Assembly (NCBI GenBank): GCA_900547165.1
Contig: URFZ01000004.1
Coordinates: 47,104 to 111,103, forward strand
From: an uncultured Eubacteriales bacterium
Lineage (GTDB): Bacteria; Bacillota; Clostridia; Oscillospirales; UBA644
Reading direction: 5' to 3'
DNA length: 64,000 bases
The position numbers and the translations under genes were made by a program. Shown piece after piece: positions 30,131 through 48,665 of this stretch (position 1 is the stretch's first letter; each line of letters starts with the position of its first letter). The notes beneath the pieces are model-generated. The model saw nothing but the letters and a program-made list of their open reading frames with translations, ran no database searches and was not told the origin of the DNA.

Positions 30131-30329
30131 AGTATTATCCTCTTGTTTCAGATTGCTGTTATTTTACATTTTATTATACAATATTCGGCGGGGATTGTCA
30201 ATAGCGGCAATAGACGATATCATAATTGAAAAAGTAATCACCATAATTGCGTATATCCTCTTGACGAAACGGGAAAATTATGATAAAATACGATTAACCA
30301 TAGATTATCCTAAAAATGCGAGGTGTATT

Positions 30330-34611: not shown

Positions 34612-36105
34612 CTAATCCGTGAGGTTCATCGTTGTGCGGCAGAGCACGTTCCAATCGGAGTCAACCGTCCAAACATAGCCGTCACAGTCGTAAACATACA
34701 ATGTGCCGCGGGACGTCTCGACAGAATCAATAAAGGTGTCATACGTCCGAATAACGGAGAGGTCGTCGGGGGCAATAACGGAAAATCCGCCGCCGTCCTC
34801 ATTCTCTTTCAAAAGATATTTGCGGTTCAGCAGTTCCTGATATTTTTCATCGGAGAGTTTGCCGCTGTTTTTGTCGAGCAGCCGATAATAATAACCGCTT
34901 CCGTCATCGTTGAACAGGCACAGAAGATACTTTTCGCTTTCACAATACATTATTTGTGGGCAGTATTCAGGCACGTCGCATACGGTTTTCAGGTTTTTAT
35001 CCACAACGGTTTGCTTACTGCCGGTGCGGAGCAAATACAACCCGCCGCCCAATGCTTCCGCCCAATCGCATTGACGGGTCTTTCCCGAAAAATTATAAAC
35101 GGTATCAGTGTCGCTTATAAAGAGCAGATCTCCCAAAGGAGATACTCCGCGCATGAAAGACGAAATATTACCCGAAACATCGAATGTCGCCTTCACTTTT
35201 TTGTTCTTGTCAAAGACGGTGACTGTTTTATTCTTTAACACAAATATGTTGCCGTAATCATCGGAGCATATACCGTCATATTCGCGAGGCAATATCTGTT
35301 TTTCTCCGCGATAAAGCCCGCATTTTCCGTCGGCGCCGTAAACGGCGAACTCACCCGGGGCAGTAGATACTGCGGCGGCAACGCCGTACTCGAATTTTTT
35401 GATTCTTTTGCCCGACTTGTTTATTATGTAATATTCCGAGTCCGAGCCGTAGACGGAAAGAAGCGCCGTGCCGTTGAAGAAATCGGAAACGACAGAGTTT
35501 TCATCGACTGTGAAAAGATATTTTCCCGTCGCGGAATAATAAGAGGTTTCGGACGCTGCGACAGATTCAAATAAAGAATCACAGCAACCGAAAACACCGT
35601 CTCCGCAATAAAAGGCGGATTTCTTTTTCGGAAATTCGAACATTGACGAACCGTCTTTCGGAATCAGGAAATAATCGGCAAGAAGGAGGTCGTCTTTGCG
35701 GTAACATTTTTCCAGCAGATAATAACCGTCGCAGTATTCGATGCTGTCGTAAACGGGATCGGTCACGATAACGCCGTCAACGGTGCAAAGACCGTAGTAG
35801 CCGCGAATCATTTCCGACATATATACATCTTCGACCTTTACGTTTTCATATTGAACGACGGAGCCGAGATACGGCACAAGTTCGCCGTAATCGGAGCGCG
35901 GGATAAGATTATCGACGTACTTATCAAACATTCGCGGCGAATCCGCCGACTTATACTTGCCGATGTCGGGCAGTTCGTCGAGAATTAAGCCCCACGTCGT
36001 CGGTTCGGGCGAAGAAGTCGGCTGTGTTTCGTCATTTTTCTTGCAGGCGCAGAAAAGCGTCAGAAGAACAGCGAAAAGGAGAAGAAGAGAGACGGTTTTT
36101 TTCAT
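34612..36105 (-). CDS. WG-repeat-containing lipoprotein, paralog 1
   Basis: Lipobox LTLFCAC. Repeated motifs of the YGLCTVDGVIVTDPVYDSIEY.DGYYLL type. Conserved C-terminus WNVLCRTTMNLTD. Confidence 0.75.
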   Translation of the reverse strand: MKKTVSLLLLFAVLLTLFCACKKNDETQPTSSPEPTTWGLILDELPDIGKYKSADSPRMFDKYVDNLIPRSDYGELVPYLGSVVQYENVKVEDVYMSEMIRGYYGLCTVDGVIVTDPVYDSIEYCDGYYLLEKCYRKDDLLLADYFLIPKDGSSMFEFPKKKSAFYCGDGVFGCCDSLFESVAASETSYYSATGKYLFTVDENSVVSDFFNGTALLSVYGSDSEYYIINKSGKRIKKFEYGVAAAVSTAPGEFAVYGADGKCGLYRGEKQILPREYDGICSDDYGNIFVLKNKTVTVFDKNKKVKATFDVSGNISSFMRGVSPLGDLLFISDTDTVYNFSGKTRQCDWAEALGGGLYLLRTGSKQTVVDKNLKTVCDVPEYCPQIMYCESEKYLLCLFNDDGSGYYYRLLDKNSGKLSDEKYQELLNRKYLLKENEDGGGFSVIAPDDLSVIRTYDTFIDSVETSRGTLYVYDCDGYVWTVDSDWNVLCRTTMNLTD

Positions 36106-36125
36106 TTTCAAAACCCCTTTGATAT
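35863..36125 (-). repeat. 263-bp near-identical segment (5' end and upstream region of paralog 1) shared with paralog 2
   Basis: Hand alignment with 37524-37786 shows about 6 mismatches. Confidence 0.8.
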
Positions 36126-36257
36126 GAAAATCTGCGATTCAACGGCATGGTCACCTGTCGAACGCTTTATATATCATCTGAAAAATCGCGCGTTTCGGAC
36201 TTGCCTTTTTCGCCGCAGCCGAGCCGCGCGGCGGTGCGTTTCTTTTTCGGGCGCGCG

Positions 36258-37766
36258 TCAGTCTGTTGCGTTCATCGTTGTGCGGCAGAGCACGTTCCAA
36301 TCTGCGTCCGTTGTGTAAGCATAGCCGTCGAGGTCGTAGAAATACAGAGTGCAGAGAGAGGTTTCGGACACGGCGAAAAATGTCGAATACGTCAGCAGAA
36401 CTTTGCCGTCTTTGCCCGAAAGGAGGTTGCGGTGACTGCCGTCCTCGGTCGGGCGGGAATAACCGTCAAAGCCGTCGATAGGAGAAACGTTTTCAACGAT
36501 GCTCCAATCGGAGGTGTCCGCGAGTTTATATTCGTAAACTTCGCCGTTGGCGGGGTCAAGGGAGCGTTCCAGAACGACATATCTGCCGATATTAAAATCC
36601 GTGATATACCAATCTTTCGGGGCGGTATAAAGTTTTTTGAAATTGTTCGAAACAACACAGAATGTGCCGTTTTCACCTTTTCCGTAATCGGCACTGACAT
36701 ACAATTTCAGTTCGGGGATATACGAAAGCTTATCATACGGAATTTTTTTTCCGCTGTTGTCTATCAAACGTCCGCCTACGGAAAGAACATTCGCGGAATA
36801 TAAATAAACTTCTTCTTCCGCAGGGTCAACGGGAAAACGGGAGACCTCTTTGAGTTTTTCATCAAGCACAACGGCGTACTCTCCGTCGCGGATAAGGAAA
36901 TATCCGTTATCGTATGCGGGTTTTTTATCGAATTTTCTGTCCGAAAGCGGCTTTGTGCCCTTGTATATCATATATTTTCCGCTGTCCGTCAGCACGGCAA
37001 AATATCCGTTGTCGGAAAGCATTTCCGCATCGGGAACGGTCAGCAAAGTCTTAAAGGAAGTATCGACAAAGCGTGTCTGACCGTCAAAAAGGAGACTCGC
37101 GACACCGTTTGTGAAACGTGTCAGAAAATAATTGCCGTCGGAGTTGTCGAGCAGCAGTTTACCCGCTGCGGAATAATATTTTTCGTTATTGTTTTCAAAG
37201 TCATATATTGCGCGGAATACTCCGCAGCCCCGGTATTCGACATAAACGTTTTTTCCGAAAGAAAAAATCGAAGAGCCGTCTTTCGGAACAACATAAAAAT
37301 TGCCGCGAAAATCAGAGGGGTCATACGTCGTATCGACGGAAGCCTTTTTCAGCAGATAGTAACCGTCGCAGTATTGAACGGACGCATAAACAGGGTCGGT
37401 GACAATAGTTCCGTCCTTGCGGCAAAGCCCGAAAAGCCCTTTCGTTTCGGCAAAAGTTCCGTCTTTAACCGTTGTGTTGTTCGCGGCGGCGTCCGAGATA
37501 TTGAAAAAGTAATCCGCGACGGCGCCGAGATACGGCACAAGTTCGCCGTAATCGGAGCGCGGGATAAGATTATCGACGTACTTATCAAACATTCGCGGCG
37601 AATCCGCCGACTTATACTTGCCGATGTCGGGCAGTTCGTCGAGAATTAAGCCCCACGTCGTCGGTTCGGGCGAAGAAGTCGGCTGTGTTTCCTCATTTTT
37701 CTTGCAGGCGCAGAACAGCGTCAGAAGAACAGCGGACAGGAGAAGAATAGAGACGGCTTTTTTCAT
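36258..37766 (-). CDS. WG-repeat-containing lipoprotein, paralog 2
   Basis: Start moved to the ATG at 37766 (MKKAVSILLLSAVLLTLFCAC). The first 75 or so aa are almost identical to paralog 1. C-terminus WNVLCRTTMNATD. Confidence 0.75.
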   Translation of the reverse strand: MKKAVSILLLSAVLLTLFCACKKNEETQPTSSPEPTTWGLILDELPDIGKYKSADSPRMFDKYVDNLIPRSDYGELVPYLGAVADYFFNISDAAANNTTVKDGTFAETKGLFGLCRKDGTIVTDPVYASVQYCDGYYLLKKASVDTTYDPSDFRGNFYVVPKDGSSIFSFGKNVYVEYRGCGVFRAIYDFENNNEKYYSAAGKLLLDNSDGNYFLTRFTNGVASLLFDGQTRFVDTSFKTLLTVPDAEMLSDNGYFAVLTDSGKYMIYKGTKPLSDRKFDKKPAYDNGYFLIRDGEYAVVLDEKLKEVSRFPVDPAEEEVYLYSANVLSVGGRLIDNSGKKIPYDKLSYIPELKLYVSADYGKGENGTFCVVSNNFKKLYTAPKDWYITDFNIGRYVVLERSLDPANGEVYEYKLADTSDWSIVENVSPIDGFDGYSRPTEDGSHRNLLSGKDGKVLLTYSTFFAVSETSLCTLYFYDLDGYAYTTDADWNVLCRTTMNATD

Positions 37767-37786
37767 TTTCAAAACCCCTTTGATAT
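37524..37786 (-). repeat. 263-bp near-identical segment (5' end and upstream region of paralog 2)
   Basis: Partner of 35863-36125. Confidence 0.8.
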
Positions 37787-37969
37787 AAAAGAGTACGAAT
37801 AATATATAATTTTTATATTCAATTTGACCTTTCAATATATTAGACGTTTTACAAAGGTTTTTGTGACATAAAACCCGATTAGTTTACAAAATATTCACAA
37901 ATGTAAATCAGATGTCGGAGGTTCTCCCCTGCGGCTGCCGCGCGTGCGGTATTTTGTGTTGTTTCACGC

Positions 37970-39526
37970 TCAATCTTTGTTTATCGGCGCACAGCAAACG
38001 GTGTTGAAATTTTCGTCAACGGTATATGCGTAACCGCCGCGATCGTAAAAAACAAGAGTGCCGAGAGCGGTGCCGAGAGAGCGAGCCAGACTGTCAACCT
38101 TTGTTTTTTGTTCGCCCGTGACGGGGTCGGTGAGCGCAAGTGTCCGCTTTTCGGGATAACCGGTCAGAAAAAAGCCTCCGAGACCGTCAAAGTATGCCGA
38201 AAGTTCGTATTTACGCGTTTTTCCGTTTTCGGGGTCGTAAACAATAGCCTCGGAAGACCGCATGGCGTAAAAAACGGGAATGTCGCAAGGCAGTACCCAC
38301 ATATTTACGGAATAACCCTCGGGCGCTTTGAAAAGCTCGTTTAAGTCACGGTCGAGAACCGCTCCGCCGACGGACAGAGAAACGGAGTAAACGCCGCTGT
38401 CGGGATAAAAAACCGTATCGTAAAATCCGGAAATATTCTGTCTTTTGCCCGAATTCGTAAGCAAAAACGTGCCTGTATACAAAGTCGAAAAACAAACGGC
38501 GACGGGGCTGACTATACGGGCGTCTTCGACGTTGTTTTTCAGCCCGTCGCCGCCGATGTCGAACGTGCCGAGGGACTTCATATCGGGGTCAAAAGCGTAA
38601 GCCGTCGAGCCCTTTACAGCGACTATGCCTTTTTCATCGCCGAACACGCCGTCGTATTCCGAGGGAAGCAGCATATCTTTGCCGTTCGCCGTCACGCCGT
38701 ATTTGCCGTTTCCGTCACCGACGCAAAACAGCCCGCACCTGAAATCTTTGGCTTCGACGGGGGTTGAAACGGTGTTGAAAGAAGTGTCCGCGAAACGGTA
38801 TGTGTTCCCCGTCGCTTCGCCCGAGGACGATGTATTGAGTTTTTCTTCAAGCGCGACGCCGTTATAAAAAGAGAGCGTGAGATCGAAGAATTCGCCTTTG
38901 TCAAAATACAGTATCTCGCCGCGGGAGGTGCAGTATGCCGTTTTTACGGAATTTTTTGAAGAAGAGTGATAATACGCGAATATTCCGTCACCGCAATACT
39001 TAGCCGTGCCGCACGTTTTAAGCTCGGTCACAAACGAACCGTCGGAGGGTATTATCAGATATGTAACGTCAGTATCTCCGACAAGAAAGGACTGCATATA
39101 ATCGGATACAGTCGCAGGCTCGAACCGTTCGAGCAGATAATACCCGTCCCGGTATTCGACGCTTTTGTATATCGGCGCGGTGACTATTCTGCCGTCGGCG
39201 GTGCAGAGACCGTAAATCGGAATGACGGTATACGGATCTTTCGCGCGCGAACTTCCGGAGGTTCCGCCGTCAAGATAATACTCATACATGTCGCCGAGAT
39301 ACGGCGCAAGCGTTCCGTAGCCGTCATCGGGGACGAACTCGGTCAGCGCCGTGTCGAAATATGTCGGAGAGCCTTTCGGCTTATACTCGCCTATGTCGGG
39401 CAGTTCGGCAAGAGTAAATTCCCGCGTCGGCTTTTTCGTCGGGTTTTCATCGGAGTTGTCGCAAGCGGCGAAAACCGTCAGAAACACGGCAACGGCAAGC
39501 AACAGAGAAAAAATCTTTTGCATCAT
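37970..39526 (-). CDS. WG-repeat-containing lipoprotein, paralog 3 (more divergent)
   Basis: Lipobox TVFAAC and the same LAELPDIGEYK..P..GYG.LAPYLG N-terminal module. WG-type repeats (YGLCTADGRIVTAPIYKSVEYRDGYYLL). Confidence 0.75.
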   Translation of the reverse strand: MMQKIFSLLLAVAVFLTVFAACDNSDENPTKKPTREFTLAELPDIGEYKPKGSPTYFDTALTEFVPDDGYGTLAPYLGDMYEYYLDGGTSGSSRAKDPYTVIPIYGLCTADGRIVTAPIYKSVEYRDGYYLLERFEPATVSDYMQSFLVGDTDVTYLIIPSDGSFVTELKTCGTAKYCGDGIFAYYHSSSKNSVKTAYCTSRGEILYFDKGEFFDLTLSFYNGVALEEKLNTSSSGEATGNTYRFADTSFNTVSTPVEAKDFRCGLFCVGDGNGKYGVTANGKDMLLPSEYDGVFGDEKGIVAVKGSTAYAFDPDMKSLGTFDIGGDGLKNNVEDARIVSPVAVCFSTLYTGTFLLTNSGKRQNISGFYDTVFYPDSGVYSVSLSVGGAVLDRDLNELFKAPEGYSVNMWVLPCDIPVFYAMRSSEAIVYDPENGKTRKYELSAYFDGLGGFFLTGYPEKRTLALTDPVTGEQKTKVDSLARSLGTALGTLVFYDRGGYAYTVDENFNTVCCAPINKD

Positions 39527-39813: not shown

Positions 39814-40254
39814 CTATCCGCGAAGATAACGCCACGGGTAATTTGCCCGGCGCGCCTTGCGTTCAACAACAAGAAGAACGATAAACGGCACTGTTCCTGC
39901 GGCAAAAAGTCCGACAAGGGTCAGAATGACGGTCAATCTGAAATCCATTTTATATACGACGCATAGGAAAGTGATGCACACGCCGGTGAGAAACAGCCAT
40001 ACGGCGAACAAAATTCTGTCCGCGAGAAGAGAAACTTTTTCTTTTTTTATCAGAAAGTGCGTTGCGACGCAAAGCCCCGTGATAAGCACGGCTTCCGCCA
40101 AAACCACCGCTATGCGGGATATTATACTTGCGGCGGATTCCTGAAAATCGGAAGGGAGCGGGAATATATCGGTTGCGCTCAACATCATTATCGCGGTCAG
40201 CAGAGACAACGCAACGGTTGCCGCAACGAGCAAAAAAGTGATGAACTTTCTCAT
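39814..40254 (-). CDS. Small polytopic membrane protein of unknown function (possible immunity-type protein)
   Basis: 146 aa with four hydrophobic helices. Lies 142 bp downstream of, and in the same orientation as, the double-glycine peptide gene. Confidence 0.6.
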   Translation of the reverse strand: MRKFITFLLVAATVALSLLTAIMMLSATDIFPLPSDFQESAASIISRIAVVLAEAVLITGLCVATHFLIKKEKVSLLADRILFAVWLFLTGVCITFLCVVYKMDFRLTVILTLVGLFAAGTVPFIVLLVVERKARRANYPWRYLRG

Positions 40255-40396
40255 ATTTATTTCTTTTTTTCTGTTATTTAAAACTATTCACCGTATCGGT
40301 AAACTTCGCCCGAATTTTATCGGAAAACTCCGAAAAGAGAGGGCAAACCGCGCGGACGGAGCAGCTCAGCCCGCGCGTTCGAAACCGTATAACAAC

Positions 40397-40594
40397 TCAA
40401 CGTGAAAATTGGTGGGAGCATTCGCGGCAGAGGTAAACTTTCGAAGAAATTTTGCTCACTTTTGTGGAACGGCACTTCGGGCAGAATAAAATTTGAGTGT
40501 GCAGTTTTCCTTTGCCTCCGATACCGCCCGCCACGTTTTCAAGTTCGTCATCGTTCATTTCATTGTTTGCGTTGTTTTTCAGTTCTTCCGACAT
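40397..40594 (-). CDS. Double-glycine-leader peptide precursor (bacteriocin/RiPP-like) with a CxxC...CxxC core
   Basis: 65 aa. The leader MSEELKNNANNEMNDDELENVAGG matches the GG-leader consensus. The cationic 41-aa core is IGGKGKLHTQILFCPKCRSTKVSKISSKVYLCRECSHQFSR. RBS AAGGAGA lies 8 nt before the ATG. Confidence 0.65.
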   Translation of the reverse strand: MSEELKNNANNEMNDDELENVAGGIGGKGKLHTQILFCPKCRSTKVSKISSKVYLCRECSHQFSR

Positions 40595-40643
40595 TGTTGA
40601 TGTCTCCTTTTCTTTATGATATATTATGTTTTAATTTTATGTC

Positions 40644-40658
40644 TGCGGATATTCCGCA
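40644..40658. promoter_or_regulatory. Inverted repeat TGCGGA-TAT-TCCGCA upstream of the peptide gene (operator-like)
   Basis: Perfect 6-3-6 palindrome 50-64 nt upstream of the peptide ATG, in an AT-rich promoter region. Confidence 0.35.
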
Positions 40659-40699
40659 AACGCTCTTCACTCTTTTATACGATGAAAAAACGCAGATGG

Positions 40700-41719
40700 C
40701 TATTCCAACGTATCAATTTTTTTTGCAACGTAGTAAAAAATCTTCATCGCGTCGGCTATATCGACCTCGCCGCTTTTATCCGCGTCCGTGCGGAGCAGCG
40801 CGTCCCACGAAATCGACTCTTTTTTCGCAACGTGATAAAAAACAAGCATTGCGTCGGATATATCGACCTCGCCGTCGCCGTTCGCGTCGCCGACAACGCA
40901 GTCACGCAGAAAAACAGCCTTTTTTGCATAATAGAAATACCCGTCCTCGGTATTGATGCAGATGCTTATGTCAAACGACTCGGCATCGGCCGAAACAATA
41001 ACCTTTTCGGCGGAGTATATCCCTTTCGCGATTTCGGTAAAATCAACGCTCCATCCTATAAATTCCATCTCTATGCTCGCGCTCCACAAAATCATATCCT
41101 GCGGAACGGCAAAACGGAAGGAAAACGGCATATTTCTGTAAACGTATTCGGTCGCGTCTATCTCAACGCGCGGAACGGGGCGCTTTTCGGGGGTATGGCC
41201 GCATTCGGCATAGGTAAGCTGATAATACCCGTCCTCCTCGACCCATATACCGCCGAGGTGCGGTGTTATAATGCAGATGCCGGATGTAAAAACGGCAATG
41301 TCTCCCGCCGCATTTTCGCATTTGACAACGGCTTTCAGAATTTTGTATTCGACGCCGAAATCAGAGATGTTTGCCGTGAACGACAGCTTACGCGAGGACG
41401 GATCATACGTCAGGGTATCGCCGTTCGGGGAGCCGTTTTCAACGGTATAAGGCGTGACCGCGCCGTATTTCTTTATTTCCAGATATATCGGCTTTTCGGT
41501 GGGCGCCCAACCTTCAGGCAGCGTCACGGACGCCCGTAACGGAGTGCAGGTTCCGGCTCTTCCGGGCAAAGCAAATGCTGCTTTTTCTTCAATCCTCTCT
41601 CCGCATTCGCATACGCCGTCCACATAAAAATGGCCGTGTTCTTCCGCGCTCGACGCAAAAGCGGCAAGCGTCGCGGCAATGCAGAGAGCAAGAAGCGCAC
41701 AAATAAGTTTTTTCTTCAT
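40700..41719 (-). CDS. Secreted dockerin-containing protein
   Basis: Start moved to the ATG at 41719 (MKKKLICALLALCIAATLAAFASSA). C-terminal type I dockerin duplicate GDANGDGEVDISDAML...DADKSGEVDIADAMK. Confidence 0.8.
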   Translation of the reverse strand: MKKKLICALLALCIAATLAAFASSAEEHGHFYVDGVCECGERIEEKAAFALPGRAGTCTPLRASVTLPEGWAPTEKPIYLEIKKYGAVTPYTVENGSPNGDTLTYDPSSRKLSFTANISDFGVEYKILKAVVKCENAAGDIAVFTSGICIITPHLGGIWVEEDGYYQLTYAECGHTPEKRPVPRVEIDATEYVYRNMPFSFRFAVPQDMILWSASIEMEFIGWSVDFTEIAKGIYSAEKVIVSADAESFDISICINTEDGYFYYAKKAVFLRDCVVGDANGDGEVDISDAMLVFYHVAKKESISWDALLRTDADKSGEVDIADAMKIFYYVAKKIDTLE

Positions 41720-41873
41720 GGCAAAATTCCTTTCCGATAGTTTCAAAGAGTATATTTTTGTGTTTTTTCACTCTCGGGAAGCCTCGCCGCGGTCTTTTTT
41801 CGCGCCGACGGCAACTGAAAGCGTCCTCGTCGTTTTTGCGCGAAAGAACGGCAGACGCGAAGGTTTTTTCCGG

Positions 41874-42557
41874 TTATTTCAGCTCAAACTCAAACTTCAT
41901 CGCAAGCATTTCAAACAGTTTTTGCATAACGCCGTTTGAAACGGCAACGATGTCCGTTTTGGATATTGCGTCAAGCACGGCGCGCTGTTCCTCTTCCGGC
42001 ACTCGGTATGCCGAAAGGCTCATCGAAAGAAAACGTTCGAGTTTGTGCGCCAGCGTGAAATACTTATCGCACGGACGCGCCATATAACTGCGCATAAGGC
42101 CCGCAGAGCCTATCTCCATTTCGTAAAAATCGCTTTCGCTGCAACACGGCAGATATTTGCCGAAAATCTGCATGAGTTCGGTGGACGTCTGCTGATATAT
42201 GTATTCCGCCGTTTCGGGGTGCGTGTAAGCCTCAACATATATCTCGCGCAGATTCTCGTTCAGTTCCGCAAGCGTCATCTGTATCGAAGTTTCGACCGCA
42301 TACAGCAGCACGGGCGACGCGTTTTTTCCAACGACCGCTCTTGCCGAGCCGAACTGCCCTTCAAACATGACGCGCACAAGTTCCATAAGAACGCCGTCCT
42401 TTGTGCGGAAAACATTTTGAAACGTTCCCGCCGAAACGTCCGCGTCGTGAATTATATCGTTCATGGTCGTTCTCTTATACCCCTTTTCGATGAACAACCT
42501 CACGCACGCCGAAAGGATTCTCCTTTTTGCGTCTTCACTGTCATATCTCCTTGCCAT
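41874..42557 (-). CDS. TetR/AcrR family transcriptional regulator
   Basis: Start moved to the ATG at 42557 (MARRYDSEDAKRRILSACVRLFIEKGYKRTTMNDIIHDADVSAGTFQNVF, a TetR-type HTH). Confidence 0.85.
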   Translation of the reverse strand: MARRYDSEDAKRRILSACVRLFIEKGYKRTTMNDIIHDADVSAGTFQNVFRTKDGVLMELVRVMFEGQFGSARAVVGKNASPVLLYAVETSIQMTLAELNENLREIYVEAYTHPETAEYIYQQTSTELMQIFGKYLPCCSESDFYEMEIGSAGLMRSYMARPCDKYFTLAHKLERFLSMSLSAYRVPEEEQRAVLDAISKTDIVAVSNGVMQKLFEMLAMKFEFELK

Positions 42558-42603
42558 AAATATCCCTCTTAATTCGAATTGGGTCATACACCTGAACCCA
42601 TAT

Positions 42604-42825: not shown

Positions 42826-44580
42826 TTATTTCATAATGTTAAGTTCACCGATTTTTTCTATAAATGATTTATTTATATAAGACGTAATCTCATCATCAGT
42901 TTCTTGCAGAGAGAGCCACTCACTTAAGTCGCAAAAATTCTTTTTAGTTACAGCCATATCTTCAGACGTAGAGAATTCTTGATTATTAAAACAAAGCCCC
43001 AGTAATAATTCTGCGATTTTTCTCTTTTTCGCGTTATTTGACTGCGCATAACTCTTCTTAAAGGTTTTCAACATTTCTGAATCAAAGCTTTCAAAACACA
43101 TTTTCGATATTGCAATTTTTTCATTATATAATCCATTGTCTAAATATGCTATAAATCTTTTTTTCTGTTTATTCATAATTACCCGATTTTCAAACCTCAT
43201 TGCTGTATTGTATAATTCTTTCCATTCGGGAGCAATGTTTTCTATCTCTACAACGCTATATCTTTCAGATTCTTCCGTTTTTTCAGTTATAACCCTCAAA
43301 AAACGTTCATTAAGACCTTTTACCATTTTCGAAGGATCCACTTCACATGGGAAAGGAATCTTTACACTTTGCAGCATTTGAACTTTTGTCAAGAACGAAA
43401 TGATTTGTTCACAAGACAAGTCTCCTGAATATGCCTTTTCTACGACTTCCGAAAAACCCTTATCTATATCTTGTTTATCTAAATCCCAAAAGTTCTTCCA
43501 CAAAAACAGTTCCCATGGCTGTATCTCTGAATCCCCGTATTTTCGTGTCAATTCAGAAATAAAAGCATCTTCGTTCCAATATCCAGTATTAATCCATTCA
43601 CTTAGTGAATCAAATGAACTGTACGCTTCTCCCTTATTAAGAAATCTTTTATTTGAATTAAAAATAGGTGCCAACACCTCTTCATCAGAAATATCAACTT
43701 GTTTATCCTCTTTAGAACTCGCTTCAAACCTCTCGGCGCCAAAAGTATATAAAACCCATTTCATATTCTCTGTCGAAACAGACGTCCCTTGCCAATAGCC
43801 GAAAACCCTTTCAAAATCTGCTAAAATATATTTTAAAATACGAATATTCTGAGAACTGCTCTCTCCGAACAATTGTCTTACAAGAACAATGTTCTGACGC
43901 AAAAAATCCTTATAGCCCAACTCTGTTTCATTATATCCGTCAACAACAGTATCGACAACAGCATTTTTATCAAGTTCAATTTTTATGGTTCTTGAAATAA
44001 CTTTTTCCTTATAATCATTATAGCATTTTTCTGTGTTGATTTTATTCTCGTCAGCCACCATAATCGTTTTTATATTTTTGTTTTCAACATAATCGTTTAT
44101 TGCGCCCAACAAATCTTGTGCATCAATTTTACACCGTTCAAAATCATCAAATGCAAGAGCAAATCTCATATCATTTTTCACAGTATTACTCACTTTTAAT
44201 AAGTCAGAAAAATCTATTGATTCTAATACTGATGTAACCCCACTGACAACCGCCGAGACGACAGGATTACTTATCGTGCACGCAGTCGTATCAATTAATT
44301 TCTTTGTACCTTCTTTCATTGGTTTCGCAGCTTTTTTAATTTTTTTCGCATGTGGCATTTGGAGCGCGAAATATGCGGATTGGACTCTTTGGTTTAAGGT
44401 TTTAACCTCTGTAATTCCAAACAAAGATATTACTGCAACGGCAATTTTTTTTTCACTAAACTCTTTTGCAATTTCTTTAATCAAATAGGATTTACCGCAC
44501 CCCCACTCTCCCGTAAGTAAAAGTGCTCCCGTTGCTTCTTTGCAGTTAAGATAGCTTTCAATTTCTTTTCTGATATCCAT
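42826..44580 (-). CDS. KAP-family P-loop NTPase
   Basis: 584 aa. Walker A LLLTGEWGCGKSY, Walker B-like FALAFDDFERC. The gene is strongly AT-rich compared with its flanks. Confidence 0.75.
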   Translation of the reverse strand: MDIRKEIESYLNCKEATGALLLTGEWGCGKSYLIKEIAKEFSEKKIAVAVISLFGITEVKTLNQRVQSAYFALQMPHAKKIKKAAKPMKEGTKKLIDTTACTISNPVVSAVVSGVTSVLESIDFSDLLKVSNTVKNDMRFALAFDDFERCKIDAQDLLGAINDYVENKNIKTIMVADENKINTEKCYNDYKEKVISRTIKIELDKNAVVDTVVDGYNETELGYKDFLRQNIVLVRQLFGESSSQNIRILKYILADFERVFGYWQGTSVSTENMKWVLYTFGAERFEASSKEDKQVDISDEEVLAPIFNSNKRFLNKGEAYSSFDSLSEWINTGYWNEDAFISELTRKYGDSEIQPWELFLWKNFWDLDKQDIDKGFSEVVEKAYSGDLSCEQIISFLTKVQMLQSVKIPFPCEVDPSKMVKGLNERFLRVITEKTEESERYSVVEIENIAPEWKELYNTAMRFENRVIMNKQKKRFIAYLDNGLYNEKIAISKMCFESFDSEMLKTFKKSYAQSNNAKKRKIAELLLGLCFNNQEFSTSEDMAVTKKNFCDLSEWLSLQETDDEITSYINKSFIEKIGELNIMK

Positions 44581-44708
44581 AAAACATCCTTTCTAATACT
44601 GATATAAATGCAATCAAATATATCTTTTAAATTACTATAACCGACATATAGTAAAACAATAACACACGAGATATAATAACACATTTACAACAAAAAGTAA
44701 AGACGTTC

Positions 44709-44752
44709 TTAACAAAATGAGCGGTATGGAACGCATGTTTCATACCGCTCAT
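44709..44752 (-). terminator. Hairpin terminator/attenuator between the methyltransferase gene and the KAP NTPase gene
   Basis: 12-bp stem ATGAGCGGTATG (44717-44728) / CATACCGCTCAT (44741-44752), followed on the minus strand by TTTTGTT. It starts 4 nt after the stop codon at 44757. Confidence 0.45.
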
Positions 44753-44756
44753 CATT

Positions 44757-47027
44757 TTACTTCAAAAATTCATATTCAAACAACGTAGGGACAATTTCGC
44801 TGTTATAATACTCTTTCACTTTTTGTTTTAAAGACTTTAAAGCCCCATTAAGCTCAGGATAATCCGGTTTGTTTTCTCCTGATTCTTCATCTGCGGTAAA
44901 AGTGTTGAGTTCTGCAAAAATCTGATATACACCATAAGTCAATTCTTTATTGTAGTTATTAGTTTTCTTTGCCCACTTAAACACTGTTTCCCATATGCTG
45001 AACAGTTCTTTTTCTTTTAACGTGACATTAAGTTTTTTTAAATCATGGCTTGCCAAAGTTTCTCCGTTTGTTGTGTCAAGGCACAATTCATTCCGGTAAA
45101 ACCGATTATCCGTACCGTGAAAACTTCTCATATGGTTTTGCATTTCAAAACAAGTAAAAACAAGACACTTTAATAAGAACTGACTCAATTTCCCGCTTTT
45201 TACGTCGGCAAAGAATTTATCTGCCCCATCTGCCGATTTCATAATTCTTGCGCGTTCCGTCCATTCTCTGTTATATGTAATATACCTGCTTGCACAGAAC
45301 ATCGGTAACTTTTCAAGATAATTATCTTTGCGAACATAAAACCCATTCCCGTCATATCTTCCAGCAACCGTAAATCCTGAATTTAAGTCCGGATTATCAA
45401 ACCCTGCAGAATTTGCAACTAAAAATCCGATGATATTATCGTCCCATACTTTTTTTACTCTCGCGCTTTCTTTGCTATATTCTGTTCCGTTCAGATTACA
45501 ACAAATCCCGTCTGTCTTATCATTATTATAAGAGGTTTTATCATAGTATTTATCAGCCAAAGTATAATAACATTTTTTAATAGTTAATTTTTCAGGCATC
45601 TCAACCAATTCTCCGCCGACTATATCAAAACCAACCGTATTAAACTTTTCGATATTTTCAGATATGTTTTGCCACGCAACAACTACAATACAAGCATCTA
45701 TCTTTGTATGAAAGTGCTTTCTGTTAAACGCGTAACTTCCGATTATTTTTTTGTTTATTAGATGATGTATTTTCCAATACTTGATCGGCGAATACACTAT
45801 ATAACAATCAGTTTCTTGTCTTAAATAGTATTTAAACCCCGACCAAATAAAAGCATTTCCTAAATCATTTGTACCTGATCCCTTAATCTCTTTCTTCATC
45901 TCTTTTACAACATAGCTGTTTTTCCAACCACTGTTTATTTTTGTTGTACCGTTTGATTCTGCATAAGGCGGATTTTCGAATAAAATTATTGTACAATTGG
46001 GGTCATCGATGTAACTTTTTATAACAGGGTTCTTTACATATTCTTCAGATAACGCGTCAGCGCCTCTGACAAGCCCCATATTAAACGTATCTTCTTTTTC
46101 AATCGGCGGAACAATATATCGAACTTTACTGCCTAACAATTCCAGCAATACTTTGTATTCATAGTATTCAATGGTCGATACAATACAATGGGAAAGTTCT
46201 TCTTCGGTCATTGTTTTTTCAAGGTTACCGGTTCCGGCACAGCGATCCAAGATTATATAATCGTTTCCTTCGGGTACCCTTTTAATAGCTTCCCTTACCA
46301 ATTCAAGAGATTTTTTTACATAGGGCTCCGGTGTATAGAAAGCACCTAAATTCTTTTTTTGAAGCGTGTCGTTCAATTTATCCATTAGATACTGAAAACG
46401 CACATTGTCTTTTCCTTTATAAGGGAAAATATAGTCTCTAAATTTAATAGGTTCTCTGATTTCACCGATAATCTTGACTTTACCGGTGTTATCGCCGATA
46501 AAATCTGATTTTCGAGCCTGTGGGTTTTCGCGGTAATACTTTTCTGCCCAACCCACAATACAGTTTTCATCAATATTAATCTTTGTATAGGATTTCTCTT
46601 TAAGCAACTGAATTAAAGAAAACTCATCCTTCTCGTCTTCGATATATTTTAGTTTTGAGATATAATCGGAAGCGAAAAATCCAACATTCTTTTTTGATGC
46701 ACCGCCGACATAAACCTTTTCAATGTGAGCCAAATAATCTTTTGAATGATATACATAAACAGTACCCGTATTTAAAGAAACCAAAAGAATATTAGCAGGA
46801 ATCGGCTCCCCCTTAACTCTCATAGCAGAAAGATATTTTATCGTTTGCAACAAACAAGCATTGAGATCTGTTATATTCAATTTAAATTCAAGCAAATTCC
46901 CGTTTAAAATACCATCTGTGTTATTACGAAAAATATCATCAAATGTCAATTCAGGATTAACGATTTTTAAATATTGCTCGTAAAATTCAATTTGACCTTC
47001 AAGTTCAACACTGTATTTTTTCAACAT
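44757..47027 (-). CDS. Single-polypeptide restriction-modification-like enzyme: N-terminal PD-(D/E)xK-like motif fused to a gamma-class N6-adenine DNA methyltransferase (Type IIG/IIL-like)
   Basis: MTase motifs GAFYTPEPYV (X), ILDRCAGTGNL (I) and FENPPYAE (IV). N-terminal TDGILNGNLLEFK is D-x8-E-x-K. The start is taken at ATG 47027, which has AGGAGG 7 nt upstream; the track start at 47048 is a GTG. Confidence 0.7.
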   Translation of the reverse strand: MLKKYSVELEGQIEFYEQYLKIVNPELTFDDIFRNNTDGILNGNLLEFKLNITDLNACLLQTIKYLSAMRVKGEPIPANILLVSLNTGTVYVYHSKDYLAHIEKVYVGGASKKNVGFFASDYISKLKYIEDEKDEFSLIQLLKEKSYTKINIDENCIVGWAEKYYRENPQARKSDFIGDNTGKVKIIGEIREPIKFRDYIFPYKGKDNVRFQYLMDKLNDTLQKKNLGAFYTPEPYVKKSLELVREAIKRVPEGNDYIILDRCAGTGNLEKTMTEEELSHCIVSTIEYYEYKVLLELLGSKVRYIVPPIEKEDTFNMGLVRGADALSEEYVKNPVIKSYIDDPNCTIILFENPPYAESNGTTKINSGWKNSYVVKEMKKEIKGSGTNDLGNAFIWSGFKYYLRQETDCYIVYSPIKYWKIHHLINKKIIGSYAFNRKHFHTKIDACIVVVAWQNISENIEKFNTVGFDIVGGELVEMPEKLTIKKCYYTLADKYYDKTSYNNDKTDGICCNLNGTEYSKESARVKKVWDDNIIGFLVANSAGFDNPDLNSGFTVAGRYDGNGFYVRKDNYLEKLPMFCASRYITYNREWTERARIMKSADGADKFFADVKSGKLSQFLLKCLVFTCFEMQNHMRSFHGTDNRFYRNELCLDTTNGETLASHDLKKLNVTLKEKELFSIWETVFKWAKKTNNYNKELTYGVYQIFAELNTFTADEESGENKPDYPELNGALKSLKQKVKEYYNSEIVPTLFEYEFLK

Positions 47028-47085
47028 AAACATACCTCCTGGATTCACTGCTTATAAACTTCTTTACCTCTCACTTTTGCAATGC

Positions 47086-47114
47086 ACAACATAATCGACA
47101 TTATGTTGCAAACA
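47086..47114 (+). repeat. Left inverted repeat of the invertible switch (ACAACATAATCGACATTATGTTGCAAACA)
   Basis: Exact 29-bp reverse complement of 47383-47411. Internally it has ACATAAT / ATTATGT arms around an asymmetric CGAC. Confidence 0.9.
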
Positions 47115-47183
47115 GGCAAAGCGGCGGCGATATATCGGGCTTTGTTGACGGCATAAGCGGAGTAAAAAGAGAATAGAAACGGC

Positions 47184-47209
47184 ATAAAAAAAGCCGCCCG
47201 AGGGCGGCA
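47184..47209 (-). terminator. Rho-independent terminator inside the invertible segment, active on the minus strand in this orientation
   Basis: GCCGCCC-GAG-GGGCGGC (47193-47209), followed on the minus strand by TTTTTTT (plus-strand A-run 47186-47192). Confidence 0.6.
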
Positions 47210-47314
47210 GATAAAAATGCGTATAAGAAAATAAGCCTTTTCCGAAACATCTAAACGAGAGAGGCTTTATTCGTATGTTTTATTTTTTCGAAAACTCAAA
47301 ACTCTTTTATGTAC

Positions 47315-47343
47315 TTGACAAATTGTCACGGATATGTTACAAT
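47315..47343 (+). promoter_or_regulatory. Near-consensus promoter inside the invertible segment, currently facing away from the methyltransferase gene
   Basis: TTGACA (47315-47320), a 17-nt spacer, then TACAAT (47338-47343). Confidence 0.65.
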
Positions 47344-47382
47344 AAAACAAATAAAAATGTTATGTTATAAACAAATTAATTT

Positions 47383-47411
47383 TGTTTGCAACATAATGTC
47401 GATTATGTTGT
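47383..47411 (-). repeat. Right inverted repeat of the invertible switch
   Basis: TGTTTGCAACATAATGTCGATTATGTTGT is the exact reverse complement of 47086-47114. Confidence 0.9.
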
Positions 47412-47447
47412 ATACGTCGCCGAGTGGCGGCGTTTTTTGTTTTTGGG

Positions 47448-48290
47448 CTACAATACTAAATGCATATTTTCCATGCGGCGGCGGTGTTCTTCACCTGTGG
47501 AAATGATATATATGCGGGTGGTGTTGATACTGCTGTGTCCGAGAATATCCGCGAGCTTTGCAATATCCTTTTCAATGCAGTAAAACACTCGGGCGAACAG
47601 GTGGCGCAGATTATGCGGAAAAACTTTTTGCGGGTTGACATTTGCTTCGGCGCATAATGCTTTCATTTCGCGCCAAACGGTCGTTCTGTCCAACGGTTTT
47701 CCTGAACGGGTGATGAAAATCATTCCCGATTTTATTTTTTGCTCTGCTGCGTAGCGGAGCAATTTTTGTTTTAGTTCTTTCACAATAAATACCGACCGTG
47801 TCTTTGCTTTGCAGTTTACAACAGCCTCGCCTTGCTTTACAGCCTCAACGGTTATAAATTGCAGTTCGCTGACGCGGATACCTGTGCCGCAAATTGTTTG
47901 CAAAATTAAGCAAAGGCGTTTGTTGCATTTTTTAGCGGCGGTACGGCAAAGACGTTCGTATTCTGCTCTTGTAAGTTCTTTTTCTTCGGGGCAGAATATT
48001 CTGCGTTGAAGTTTGAGCGATTTTACTTTTAGTTCCGGGTGTTCGACAAATTCAAAAAATGCGTTCAAACCGGCAAGCATGGAATTTACACTGCGAACAG
48101 CATAATGACCGTTAAGAAAATTCTTGTATGACACGACGGTTTCTTTTGTGACAAGTTGTCCTTTTGTATAACGGGCAAATACGGAAACATCACGAACATA
48201 TTTTTCAATGGTAGCTGTACTGCGTTCGCAATAAGTCAGATGTCGGCGAAAGCGCGAAATATTATCCGATTTTATTATAAGTTCTTTCAT
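47448..48290 (-). CDS. Tyrosine site-specific recombinase (XerC/D-phage integrase family)
   Basis: Start moved to the ATG at 48290 (MKELIIKSDNISRFRRHL...). Catalytic-region motifs HNLRHLFA and LGHSSINTTRIY. Confidence 0.85.
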   Translation of the reverse strand: MKELIIKSDNISRFRRHLTYCERSTATIEKYVRDVSVFARYTKGQLVTKETVVSYKNFLNGHYAVRSVNSMLAGLNAFFEFVEHPELKVKSLKLQRRIFCPEEKELTRAEYERLCRTAAKKCNKRLCLILQTICGTGIRVSELQFITVEAVKQGEAVVNCKAKTRSVFIVKELKQKLLRYAAEQKIKSGMIFITRSGKPLDRTTVWREMKALCAEANVNPQKVFPHNLRHLFARVFYCIEKDIAKLADILGHSSINTTRIYIISTGEEHRRRMENMHLVL

Positions 48291-48420
48291 CTTTTGATAC
48301 CTCCGCAGATATTCTACCCTAAAAATCAAAAAAGAACAAACAAAAATGCTAACGGTGCATAAAATGGAATGTGAGGAAGAGAGTTTGCGCATTCGCGCGA
48401 ACTGCCGCACGGCGTAAAGG

Positions 48421-48665
48421 CGAAAAAAAGACAGCGTCTGTTTCGGAATATCCCCTGCTCGAATCTCAAACACTTTCCGCACTTTGCAGACATGACCAAA
48501 ACAATATCAATTTATTTGATTATGTTTTGTTTGACAGATACCCAAATAATCTTCCGCGAAACCGCCCGAGGCGGCGGCGAGGGTGAGTTGAGCGGCGGCG
48601 AGCAAGCGGAGCGCAGGCGCAGCGGCGAGACGGAATGAGCTGAAACAAGTGTGTTCGAGAGAGAA
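48421..48665 (+). repeat. Dispersed noncoding repeat of about 245 bp, copy B
   Basis: Collinear with 22254-22500, with its core at 48578-48632. Lies between the recombinase gene and dpaA. Confidence 0.7.

What the first reader, a model, noticed from the sequence alone, without database searches (positions are those of the whole stretch)
40397..40594. Double-glycine-leader peptide with a zinc-ribbon-like (CxxC...CxxC) cationic core
The 65-aa product starts with MSEELKNNANNEMNDDELENVAGG. Counting back from the GG, it has V at -4, L at -7, E at -8 and M at -12. This is the textbook double-glycine leader of class II bacteriocins and GG-type RiPPs.

The predicted 41-aa core (IGGKGKLHTQILFCPKCRSTKVSKISSKVYLCRECSHQFSR) is strongly cationic. 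It carries CPKC...CREC, a spacing typical of a zinc ribbon, which is unusual for an exported peptide. The gene has a strong RBS and a palindrome (TGCGGA-TAT-TCCGCA) in its promoter region. It is followed by a hairpin and a 4-TM protein that could be an immunity factor. No C39-peptidase ABC exporter is present in the window.
Basis: partly seen in the sequence, partly recalled or inferred. Interest (0 to 1): 0.65.

Follow-up and report, generated by a model that had tools for sequence, protein, structure and literature searches.

The report
Secretion-tagged zinc-ribbon peptide, strain-variable
A 65-residue gene in an uncultured human-gut Clostridia bacterium joins a classic "double-glycine" export/cleavage tag to a small zinc-ribbon domain, and it is a stand-alone, strain-variable member of a widespread class of such peptides that has no curated family.

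Summary
ORF 40397-40594(-) encodes the stated 65 aa, with V-4, L-7, E-8 and M-12 before GG. The RBS, the palindrome, the downstream hairpin and the 4-TM neighbour are all present. No C39/ABC exporter lies in the 64 kb window.

The leader looks real. An HMM built only from leaders in exporter (PCAT)/radical-SAM loci matches residues 1-24 end to end (E=6e-7). The leader's dN/dS is 0.03-0.22.

The core is a true zinc-ribbon fold. AF2 gives pLDDT ~90, and the best structural matches are ribosomal eL43 ribbons at about 1 A rmsd.

Within one species the neighbouring genes are 93-100% identical, yet the core exists as mosaic alleles (dN/dS ~0.9, four Cys kept).

Relatives found by profile search are GG- or Nif11-leader peptides with zinc-ribbon cores. 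Many sit beside PCATs and rSAM/SPASM enzymes in gut and rumen Clostridia. In 80 PCAT loci, 18% of candidate GG precursors carry CxxC...CxxC, against about 2% in shuffled cores.

Here the gene is an orphan whose only conserved partner is a TetR regulator. The proposed immunity protein is a lineage-restricted ORFan and is absent from two related loci.

Still untested: export, cleavage, zinc binding, activity, and whether the genome has a PCAT.

Verdict: a new variant of a known kind, of moderate to high interest.

The parts
40397..40594 (-). 65-aa precursor gene (leader + zinc-ribbon core + stop)
   Evidence: ORF list and translation. There are 22 close homologs, with the same synteny in 20 loci. 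Codon-level constraint is shown.
40523..40594 (-). Double-glycine leader, residues 1-24 (MSEELKNNANNEMNDDELENVAGG); predicted cleavage after G24
   Evidence: Residues 1-27 (the leader plus IGG) are almost invariant across the family, with dN/dS 0.03-0.22. They match the HMM of PCAT-locus leaders over model positions 1-25, at 25.7 bits and E=6e-7. They give sub-threshold hits to TIGR01847, PF10439, PF04604 and NF038167. AF2 predicts them to be disordered, pLDDT <50.
40397..40522 (-). 41-aa cationic core (residues 25-65) plus stop. The zinc ribbon spans about residues 36-64, with ligands C38, C41, C56 and C59.
   Evidence: AF2 gives pLDDT ~90 for residues 31-65, with three strands. Foldseek top hits are eL43/L37ae zinc ribbons, rmsd ~1 A over 28-32 residues, probability ~1.0. 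The profile search against PDB sequences returns L37ae and Rpb12. Zn_ribbon_IS1595 scores 24.8 bits against a 25.4 cut-off. The four Cys are invariant in the 11 full-length family members. pI 9.97, charge +7.9.
40604..40608 (-). Shine-Dalgarno AGGAG, 9 nt upstream of the ATG
   Evidence: Read from the sequence. Conserved in L001, L016, L017 and L018.
40641..40661 (.). Imperfect palindrome GTCTGCGGA-TAT-TCCGCAAAC overlapping a promoter-like -35; candidate operator (perhaps for the neighbouring TetR)
   Evidence: Inverted repeat I6. It is the only exact copy in the window. A promoter-like site lies at 40645..40616 on the minus strand. The palindrome is conserved in same-lineage loci, including L017, but absent in L021. 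Its function is inferred only.
40667..40684 (-). Conserved upstream block TCGTATAAAAGAGTGAA (contains a TATAAA -10-like hexamer)
   Evidence: Identical or near-identical in window, L001, L016, L017 and L018, and recognisable in the distant L021 (TCGTATAAAAGATTGAGAA).
40349..40377 (-). GC-rich hairpin after the stop codon, a likely terminator or transcript stabiliser
   Evidence: Inverted repeat I3: 14-nt arms, 86% complementary. A hairpin is retained at the same place with different sequence in L001, L016 and L017. L021 has a canonical terminator there.
41874..42587 (-). TetR-family regulator, the only partner of the peptide gene conserved across lineages
   Evidence: TetR_N, E=4e-10. Gene calls give 227-237 aa in all loci. 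In L021 a TetR that is 86% identical sits directly upstream of the 50%-identical peptide P0023.
40700..41719 (-). Secreted dockerin-bearing protein between TetR and the peptide (lineage-specific insertion, hypervariable)
   Evidence: Dockerin_1, 29.6 bits. It is 48-99% identical between loci and absent in L021.
39814..40254 (-).
   Evidence: Hydropathy. No family reaches threshold. Only 9 homologs, all >=82% identical. Absent in L017 and L021.

Best explanation
The gene encodes a ribosomal precursor with two modules.

Residues 1-24 are an acidic, disordered double-glycine leader. I infer that it is bound by the C39 peptidase domain of a peptidase-containing ABC transporter (PCAT) encoded elsewhere in the genome, through the hydrophobic residues at -4, -7 and -12. 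The leader would then be cut after Gly24 as the cargo is pumped out.

The 41-residue cationic cargo folds into a three-stranded zinc ribbon held by Cys38/41/56/59. The fold is predicted; metal binding is inferred. In an anaerobic gut bacterium, Zn(Cys)4 would do the stabilising job that disulfides do in aerobic secreted peptides.

Outside the cell the mini-protein probably acts on other cells, either as a narrow-spectrum bacteriocin or as a recognition or signal peptide. The reason is that its exposed residues exist as recombining alleles within one species, while the leader and the fold-defining residues are frozen.

Transcription is from the gene's own promoter. That promoter carries a conserved palindrome and is probably controlled by the adjacent conserved TetR regulator (inferred).

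The gene is an 'orphan' precursor that has left the PCAT/radical-SAM multi-precursor clusters in which its wider class normally sits.
For: Shown:

- The ORF, the motif positions and the Cys spacing are as described.
- The leader matches an HMM made only from 32 leaders of PCAT/rSAM loci. The match runs end to end at E=6e-7 and is the only hit in the window.
- Several curated GG-leader models give sub-threshold hits on the same residues.
- Leader dN/dS is 0.03-0.22, against 0.84-0.93 for the C-terminal tail between allele types. In the window vs L017 contrast the leader has 6 synonymous and 2 non-synonymous changes and the tail has 4 and 12 (Fisher p=0.03).
- Same-species loci have neighbours 93-100% identical, but peptide alleles only 65-83% identical, with mosaic DNA breakpoints.
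- AF2 gives pLDDT ~90 for residues 31-65. Foldseek and the PDB profile search return eL43/L37ae and Rpb12 zinc ribbons.
- The full HMMER search of 1.84 billion representatives finds 29 hits. The distant ones are GG- or Nif11-leader peptides with CPxC...CxDC cores.
- Such peptides lie next to PCAT, a second ABC transporter and rSAM-SPASM genes in L024, L026 and L109-L118.
- In 80 further PCAT loci, 26 of 145 candidate GG precursors have CxxC...CxxC, against 2.5 expected from shuffled cores.
- TetR-peptide synteny is kept in L021, where TetR is 86% and the peptide 50% identical.

From the literature: PCAT1 recognises only leader positions -4, -7 and -12. Its cavity is unspecific and large enough for a 66-residue cargo (PMC6959990).
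Against: - No C39/ABC exporter lies in the 64 kb window or within 10 kb of the peptide gene in the 20 related loci, as far as each contig reaches; several are short. Whether the genome has one could not be tested.
- The curated GG-leader and zinc-ribbon HMMs all fall below their cut-offs.
- No conserved immunity gene is present.
- A folded, metal-bound domain is an unusual PCAT cargo.
- Related cluster-encoded peptides sit next to rSAM/SPASM enzymes. Their cysteines, and perhaps these, could be crosslink sites rather than metal ligands.
- Truncated and frameshifted alleles exist (P0016-P0022), so the gene is dispensable.
- No expression data were available.
Confidence: 0.6

Rival explanations
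1. It is a radical-SAM-modified RiPP precursor. The four cysteines are donors for thioether (sactionine- or ranthionine-type) crosslinks installed by an rSAM/SPASM maturase encoded elsewhere. The zinc-ribbon resemblance then reflects only the unmodified precursor.
For: Nif11-leader relatives with the same CPxC...CxDC core lie directly beside 465-471-aa rSAM/SPASM genes. Examples are P0024 in L022/L023 and P0051 in L026-L028, where the rSAM-peptide pair stays together in different flanks. The MSEE-leader loci L110-L117 each carry an rSAM-SPASM gene.
Against: The only radical-SAM protein in the window is RlmN. There is no rSAM hit in the window or in L001-L021. The core matches true zinc ribbons beyond the Cys positions, in strand pattern and in the CPxC and CxxC knuckles. 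Sister cargos in the same clusters use His ligands (CxxC...HxxxH, zf-C2H2_4 at 25.8 bits), which fits metal binding and not thioether chemistry.
Confidence: 0.15
2. It is an intracellular small zinc-ribbon protein. The GG-leader-like N-terminus is a relic, or an acidic regulatory tail, that is never cleaved. The protein would act inside the cell, for example as a nucleic-acid- or protein-binding regulator working with the adjacent TetR.
For: No exporter, maturase or conserved immunity gene is nearby. The locus is in the core genome next to dpaAB and NAD synthase genes. The conserved partner is a transcription factor. Zinc ribbons are typically cytoplasmic nucleic-acid-binding modules.
Against: The leader is the most conserved part of the protein (dN/dS 0.03-0.22), and it aligns end to end with leaders from PCAT loci, including the GG terminus. 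The core's surface evolves at dN/dS ~0.9 with intraspecific mosaic alleles, inside a block of hypervariable surface proteins. That pattern is typical of extracellular interaction molecules.
Confidence: 0.15
3. It is an exported signalling peptide (pherotype-like) rather than a toxin. Allelic cores would mark strain identity and be sensed by a cognate receptor, as with GG-leader pheromones such as CSP and BlpC.
For: Discrete recombining alleles exist within one species. There is no linked immunity gene. GG-leader pheromones processed by distant transporters are established in streptococci (review PMC7595303, listed).
Against: No histidine kinase or response regulator lies next to the gene. Known GG pheromones are short, unstructured and Cys-free. 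The core here is strongly cationic and folded.
Confidence: 0.2

Closest known systems
Double-glycine-leader class II bacteriocin / PCAT substrates (e.g. CtA of Clostridium thermocellum PCAT1; lactococcin/ComC-type leaders; Pfam PF10439, TIGR01847)
   Same: A 24-residue acidic leader ending in GG, with hydrophobic residues at -4, -7 and -12 and Glu at -8. The core is small and cationic. As in many systems, the precursor gene can lie far from the transporter.
   Different: The curated leader HMMs are not reached (14.2 vs 15.7 bits; 14.8 vs 27.1). The cargo is a zinc-ribbon domain rather than an amphipathic or disulfide peptide. No transporter or immunity gene is nearby. The conserved partner is a TetR regulator.
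Nif11-/GG-leader multi-precursor clusters with PCAT and rSAM-SPASM enzymes in gut and rumen Clostridia (loci L024, L026, L109-L118 here; Nif11-like leader family TIGR03798)
   Same: The leader is homologous to the MSEEIKKEAQDxELNPEELDKVAGG leaders of these clusters. The CPxC...CxDC zinc-ribbon core occurs among their precursors.
   Different: The window gene is solitary. It has no PCAT or rSAM within reach, has a short (not Nif11) leader, and forms a narrow family confined to one uncultured lineage.
Classical zinc ribbons (ribosomal eL43/L37ae, RNA polymerase Rpb12, TFIIS/TFS4, IS1595 transposase N-terminal ribbon PF12760)
   Same: Two CxxC knuckles, a three-stranded sheet, and about 1 A rmsd over 28-32 residues to eL43. 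PF12760 scores 24.8 bits against a cut-off of 25.4.
   Different: Those are intracellular nucleic-acid-binding modules inside larger proteins. This one is a free 41-residue domain behind a secretion and cleavage tag.
Sactipeptides such as ruminococcin C (two Cys pairs, double hairpin, rSAM-installed thioethers)
   Same: Gut Clostridia origin, four cysteines in two pairs, and a small cationic peptide.
   Different: No rSAM maturase is at the locus. The Cys spacing and strand pattern are those of a zinc ribbon. The leader type is GG, unlike the RumC leader (the leader comparison is from my own knowledge and was not tested here).

Membership tests
Double-glycine (GG) leader / PCAT substrate | GG (or GA/GS) cleavage motif 15-30 residues from the N-terminus, with hydrophobic residues at -4, -7 and -12 and an acidic residue at -8 | tested here: met
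   V21(-4), L18(-7), E17(-8), M13(-12) and G23-G24, read from the translation. Conserved in all family members.
Double-glycine (GG) leader / PCAT substrate | Scores above the curated cut-off of a GG-leader HMM | tested here: not met
   TIGR01847 14.2 vs 15.7; PF10439 14.8 vs 27.1; PF04604 19.6 vs 21.7; NF038167 21.6 vs 32. These are short models, and all the hits fall on residues 1-33.
Double-glycine (GG) leader / PCAT substrate | Leader homologous to leaders of precursors that are physically linked to a C39-ABC transporter | tested here: met
   An HMM of 32 leaders from L109-L118 (loci with a PCAT and/or an rSAM-SPASM gene; a full PCAT in L109 and L111-L115) matches residues 1-24 over model positions 1-25, at 25.7 bits and E=6e-7. 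It is the only hit among 1193 window segments.
Double-glycine (GG) leader / PCAT substrate | A cognate Peptidase_C39 ABC transporter in the same genome | not testable with these tools
   None in the 64 kb window, and none within 10 kb of the gene in the 20 related loci, as far as each contig reaches. Sister-species genomes did not appear among the best 80 PCAT loci, which is uninformative.
Double-glycine (GG) leader / PCAT substrate | Cleavage after GG and export of the core | not testable with these tools
   This needs biochemistry or mass spectrometry.
Zinc ribbon fold | Two CxxC knuckles flanking a beta-hairpin, with a three-stranded antiparallel sheet | tested here: met
   C38-x2-C41-x14-C56-x2-C59. 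The AF2 model has strands 46-48, 53-56 and 62-64, with pLDDT ~90. Foldseek top hits are eL43 ribbons at rmsd 0.8-1.9 A and probability ~1.0, but with E ~0.06 because the domain is short.
Zinc ribbon fold | Scores above the curated cut-off of a zinc-ribbon HMM | tested here: inconclusive
   PF12760 24.8 vs 25.4 (just below); NF050000 22.1 vs 28. PF12760 is precomputed as a hit for cluster representative P0002.
Zinc ribbon fold | Stoichiometric Zn(II) bound by four cysteines | not testable with these tools
   This needs metal analysis of the purified peptide.
rSAM-modified RiPP (sactipeptide/ranthipeptide-like) | A radical-SAM/SPASM maturase encoded next to the precursor | tested here: not met
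   The only radical-SAM protein in the window is RlmN. tblastn with three cluster rSAM-SPASM proteins finds nothing in the window or in L001-L021.
Class II bacteriocin operon | A dedicated immunity gene co-located and co-conserved with the structural gene | tested here: not met
   The 146-aa TM protein is missing in L017 and L021. It has no relatives below 82% identity and no family hit.
Nif11-like leader RiPP precursors (TIGR03798) | A ~60-70-residue Nif11-homologous leader | tested here: not met
   The leader is only 24 residues, and TIGR03798 scores 16.9 vs 32.3, on the GG end only. Distant relatives P0024, P0034, P0035 and P0051 do carry Nif11-type leaders.

The most novel reading that the evidence does not exclude
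Gut and rumen Clostridia secrete, through a very widespread PCAT family, a whole repertoire of miniature zinc-finger domains (zinc ribbons and C2H2-like fingers). These would use metal coordination instead of disulfides to stay folded in an anoxic, reducing lumen. The window's peptide would be a domesticated, TetR-controlled, strain-variable member used for competition or recognition between strains. That would make it the first recognised class of extracellular zinc-finger bacteriocins or signals.
Probability: 0.3. Interest if true: 0.8.

Novelty: new variant of a known kind. Interest (0 to 1): 0.6.

Why it matters
Double-glycine leaders and PCAT exporters are well understood. Their known cargos are amphipathic peptides, lanthipeptides or unstructured proteins.

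A zinc-ribbon cargo that recurs in hundreds of gut and rumen Clostridia loci would add a new structural class to secreted bacterial peptides. None of Pfam, NCBIfam or the papers searched describes it. It would also suggest how strict anaerobes stabilise extracellular mini-proteins without disulfides.

The window's gene is abundant in human gut metagenomes; the index lists the exact sequence in 610 blocks of the collection. It shows discrete recombining alleles within one species. That makes it a tractable marker, and a possible effector, of strain-level competition in an uncultured lineage.

It also warns genome miners of two things. CxxC...CxxC cores next to rSAM enzymes may be metal sites rather than crosslink sites, or the reverse. 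And context-based tools that require a nearby C39 gene will miss orphan precursors like this one.

Tried and rejected
1. 'Chance ORF': rejected. The gene shows synteny in 20 loci, synonymous-only change in the leader, and an RBS, promoter and terminator.

2. PCAT or rSAM in the window: the large ORFs were Pfam-scanned and a tblastn search with cluster PCAT, ABC and rSAM proteins was run. Nothing was found except RlmN.

3. Paralogous GG peptides in the window: a six-frame regex scan found none.

4. Finding the family in GTDB genomes: the pattern scan found only a Butyrivibrio peptide that shares the leader alone. The window's own species seems absent from that collection. Its nearest representatives are two uncultured Eubacteriales MAGs, with PriA 88% and 79% identical.

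5. Finding a PCAT in sister species: the best 80 of at least 556 PCAT loci did not include them, which is uninformative.

8. The palindrome as a repeated operator: there is only one exact copy in the window, and it is not conserved in L021. TetR control therefore stays an inference.

9. TM146 as an immunity protein: the homology search found only near-identical lineage-restricted copies, with no PADLOC, Pfam or NCBIfam family.

10. Literature: seven full-text searches found no paper on GG-leader zinc-ribbon peptides. No supplements are held for the IIBacFinder gut atlas, so I could not check whether it lists this peptide.
Full report
OBSERVATION

Counting back from G24, the leader has V-4, L-7, E-8 and M-12. 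The core is 41 residues, 4655.5 Da, pI 9.97 and about +8, while the leader is acidic with pI 4.05. The cysteines form C38-x2-C41-x14-C56-x2-C59.

An AGGAG lies 9 nt before the ATG. The palindrome TGCGGA-TAT-TCCGCA is at 40644-40658 and overlaps a promoter-like site. It is the only exact copy in the window. A 14-bp GC-rich hairpin follows the stop codon at 40349-40377. The next gene, 39814-40254, has four hydrophobic segments.

No Peptidase_C39/ABC exporter is in the window. The large ORFs were scanned with Pfam, and tblastn with a cluster PCAT found nothing. A six-frame scan finds no second GG-leader candidate.

IS IT A REAL GENE?

Yes. The exact protein is listed in 610 blocks of the public assembly index, and its close variant P0005 in 150. 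All the loci inspected for these two proteins are metagenome or MAG contigs with the same gene order. That order is dpaA/dpaB, TetR, a dockerin protein, the peptide, the 146-aa membrane protein, three ~500-aa lipoprotein paralogs, and a PBP-like protein.

The organism is an uncultured human-gut Eubacteriales/Oscillospirales lineage. Its nearest species representatives have PriA 88% and 79% identical.

Codon analysis shows strong constraint on the leader. Window vs L017 has 6 synonymous and 2 non-synonymous changes in codons 1-27. Leader dN/dS is 0.03-0.22 in all contrasts.

THE LEADER

Curated models for GG leaders (TIGR01847, PF10439, PF04604, NF038167, TIGR03949) all hit residues 1-33, but below their cut-offs.

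A more direct test was possible. Peptides with the leader MSEEIKKEAQDxELNPEELDKVAGG were found in eleven GTDB genomes of rumen and gut Lachnospiraceae, Ruminococcaceae and Oscillospiraceae. Ten of those eleven loci carry a PCAT, a second ABC transporter and/or an rSAM-SPASM gene within reach, and six have a full-length PCAT.

An HMM built only from 32 such leaders matches the window peptide's residues 1-24 from the first to the last model position. The score is 25.7 bits and E=6e-7 among 1193 reading-frame segments of the window, with no other hit. The leader is therefore homologous to leaders that are physically linked to C39 exporters.

From the literature, PCAT1 recognises its substrate only through leader positions -4, -7 and -12. 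Its cavity has no cargo specificity and holds a 66-residue cargo (PMC6959990). A 41-residue cargo is therefore compatible; this is an inference.

THE CORE

AlphaFold2 run on an 11-sequence family alignment gives a disordered leader (pLDDT <50). It gives a confident three-stranded domain for residues 31-65 (pLDDT ~90).

The best Foldseek matches in the PDB are the zinc ribbons of ribosomal protein eL43/L37ae, at rmsd 0.8-1.9 A over 27-32 residues. Probability is ~1.0, but E is only ~0.06 because the domain is so short. A sequence profile against PDB chains finds L37ae and Rpb12. Pfam Zn_ribbon_IS1595 scores 24.8 bits against a cut-off of 25.4.

So the resemblance goes beyond the Cys spacing. 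Zinc binding itself is not shown.

POPULATION PATTERN

Among loci of the same species, TetR, the dockerin protein and the membrane protein are 92-100% identical to the window. The peptide is only 65-83% identical.

The window allele and the P0005 allele have identical DNA for the first ~122 nt and then differ at about 17 of the last 75 nt (4 synonymous and 13 non-synonymous changes). L016 carries a third middle segment joined to the P0005 tail. This is a mosaic of recombining modules.

Between allele types the C-terminal tail has dN/dS 0.84-0.93, while the four Cys and the strand residues stay fixed. The contrast between leader and tail is significant in the window vs L017 comparison (Fisher p=0.03), though the counts are small.

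The flanking surface proteins are also hypervariable: the dockerin protein is 48-99% identical between loci and the lipoproteins 29-100%. TetR stays at 93-100%.

Some metagenome variants are frameshifted or truncated (P0016-P0022). The gene is therefore dispensable in some strains, unless these are assembly errors.

A frozen leader combined with a diversifying exposed core is what is expected of a secreted interaction molecule. It is the opposite of what is expected for a disordered tail on an ordinary intracellular zinc ribbon.

THE WIDER CLASS

A full HMMER search of 1.84 billion representative proteins with the family profile returned 29 hits. Apart from the family itself, the hits are 48-240-residue proteins from other organisms. 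Nearly all of them have a GG leader followed by a CPxC...CxDC zinc ribbon. Some have short MSEE-type leaders, some have long Nif11-type leaders (P0024, P0034, P0035), and one is a 240-aa protein with four GG motifs (P0025).

A word-indexed search with that alignment added more, including many peptides with the leader MKTKEELNALKEEVETLNKKLHELTEEELEQVSGG. None of them reaches any curated NCBIfam cut-off.

Their contexts are as follows:
- P0045 lies in a cluster with a 726-aa PCAT, a second ABC transporter, about a dozen Nif11-leader Cys-rich precursors and an rSAM-SPASM enzyme.
- P0051 lies beside a PCAT and two rSAM enzymes. In other contigs it keeps just its adjacent rSAM.
- P0024 lies beside an rSAM/SPASM gene.
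- P0027 is one of three tandem GG precursors, two of which have zinc ribbons.
- P0026 is an orphan next to RNase J.

In the 80 best loci I found 145 unique candidate GG precursors. Of these, 26 (18%) carry CxxC-x8-25-CxxC, against 2.5 expected when the same cores are shuffled.

Some cargos in these clusters look like C2H2 fingers (CxxC...HxxxH), with zf-C2H2_4 at 25.8 bits against a cut-off of 27. His ligands argue for metal binding rather than thioether chemistry, at least for those peptides.

THE LOCAL LOCUS

The nearest relative outside the family is P0023, 50% identical. It lies directly downstream of a TetR that is 86% identical to the window's TetR. That locus has no dockerin gene and no 146-aa membrane protein, and a canonical terminator follows the peptide gene. 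TetR is thus the only partner conserved across lineages.

The upstream block TCGTATAAAAGAGTGAA is recognisable in all loci, including L021. The palindrome is conserved only within the window's lineage. TetR control is a reasonable inference but is untested.

The 146-aa membrane protein is cleanly absent from L017, where 323 bp separate the peptide gene from the next gene. Its only homologs in 5.8 billion proteins are at least 82% identical. It cannot be called an immunity factor on present evidence.

MECHANISM PROPOSED

Confidence is about 0.6. The proposed steps, each marked shown or inferred, are:
1. Translation of the 65-aa precursor. The gene is shown.
2. Recognition of the leader by a C39 domain of a PCAT encoded elsewhere. 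This is inferred from leader homology and constraint.
3. Cleavage after G24 and export. Inferred.
4. Folding of the cargo into a Zn(Cys)4 ribbon. The fold is predicted; the metal is inferred.
5. Action on other cells as a narrow-spectrum bacteriocin or recognition peptide. This is inferred from cationicity and allelic diversification.
6. Regulation by TetR. This is inferred from synteny.

The rivals are:
- An rSAM-crosslinked RiPP made by a distant maturase (0.15).
- An uncleaved intracellular zinc-ribbon protein (0.15).
- Within the export model, a signalling rather than killing role (0.2, overlapping the main model).

COMPARISON AND NOVELTY

It works like a GG-leader PCAT substrate, and its core is a zinc ribbon. 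It meets the motif-level and homology-level tests for the leader and the fold-level test for the ribbon. It misses every curated HMM cut-off, and its transporter is unseen.

No Pfam or NCBIfam family covers the combination, and no paper found in seven full-text searches describes it. I cannot exclude that it appears in supplementary tables of gut bacteriocin atlases. The IIBacFinder study reports 4,186 unique double-glycine precursors from ~280,000 gut genomes, but no supplements are held.

I rate it a new variant of a known kind, with interest 0.6. The window's gene alone is a modest find. The class it points to is the more interesting lead: zinc-finger-type cargos as a recurrent product of a very widespread Clostridial PCAT system.

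Noticed in passing
window 42826-48482: A low-GC island (34-38% GC, against ~50% in the flanks) lies between TetR and dpaA. It holds a tyrosine integrase (47448-48482), a 763-aa protein with no Pfam hit that carries NPPY- and DxxxGxG-like methyltransferase motifs (44757-47048), and a KAP-family NTPase matching the PADLOC candidate defence family PDC-S49 (42826-44580, E=3e-50). The same island is in L012 but absent from the other related loci. It is probably a mobile defence island.
   Followed up: partly
window 34612-39526 (three ORFs, minus strand): Three tandem paralogous ~500-aa lipoproteins, with only a weak WG_beta_rep hit. They are hypervariable between strains of one species (29-100% identity), while flanking genes are 93-100% identical. 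In some loci only two copies are present (L018, L019).
   Followed up: partly
window 40700-41746 and 55192-57051: Two secreted proteins end in type I dockerin modules, and one also has BspA-type LRRs. This implies a cohesin-dockerin surface system in this uncultured gut lineage. The first of them has a 48%-identical allele in L017.
   Followed up: no
L001-L014 (about 4.5-6.5 kb in locus coordinates); window 49720-50313: Next to dpaA/dpaB, related strains carry one to three extra 162-188-aa PF02441 flavoprotein genes in variable copy number. They could be dpaB paralogs or HFCD-type enzymes; their function is unknown.
   Followed up: no
P0016-P0022 (metagenome variants of the peptide): Frameshifted or truncated alleles that keep the leader but lose the zinc ribbon. 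One of them, P0021 (37 aa), is seen on 7 contigs. They are either real decay of the gene in some strains or assembly errors.
   Followed up: no
L110, L111, L112 (e.g. L112:10001, L110:10190): GG-leader precursors in PCAT/rSAM clusters whose cores look like classical C2H2 zinc fingers (CxxC-x12-HxxxH). zf-C2H2_4 scores 25.8 bits against a cut-off of 27. Secreted C2H2-like fingers in bacteria would be unusual.
   Followed up: partly
P0025 (240 aa, from the representative search): A single protein containing four successive GG-leader-like motifs (…EEVAGG, …ENVAGG, …EDVRGG, …DNVAGG). The last is followed by a zinc-ribbon core. It may be a multi-cassette precursor or a fusion of tandem precursor genes.
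   Followed up: no
L015:9947-10228 (Butyrivibrio sp. MAG): A 93-aa GG-leader peptide (…MNDDELENVTGG) with a Lys/Ser-rich, Cys-poor core sits just upstream of pheS/pheT with no exporter nearby. It is another orphan GG precursor and shares only the leader with the window's peptide.
   Followed up: no
window 30066-31553 and 31849-33039: Two adjacent AAA_14/DUF4143 ATPase genes. Related loci carry one or two copies in this position, so this is a variable spot.
   Followed up: no
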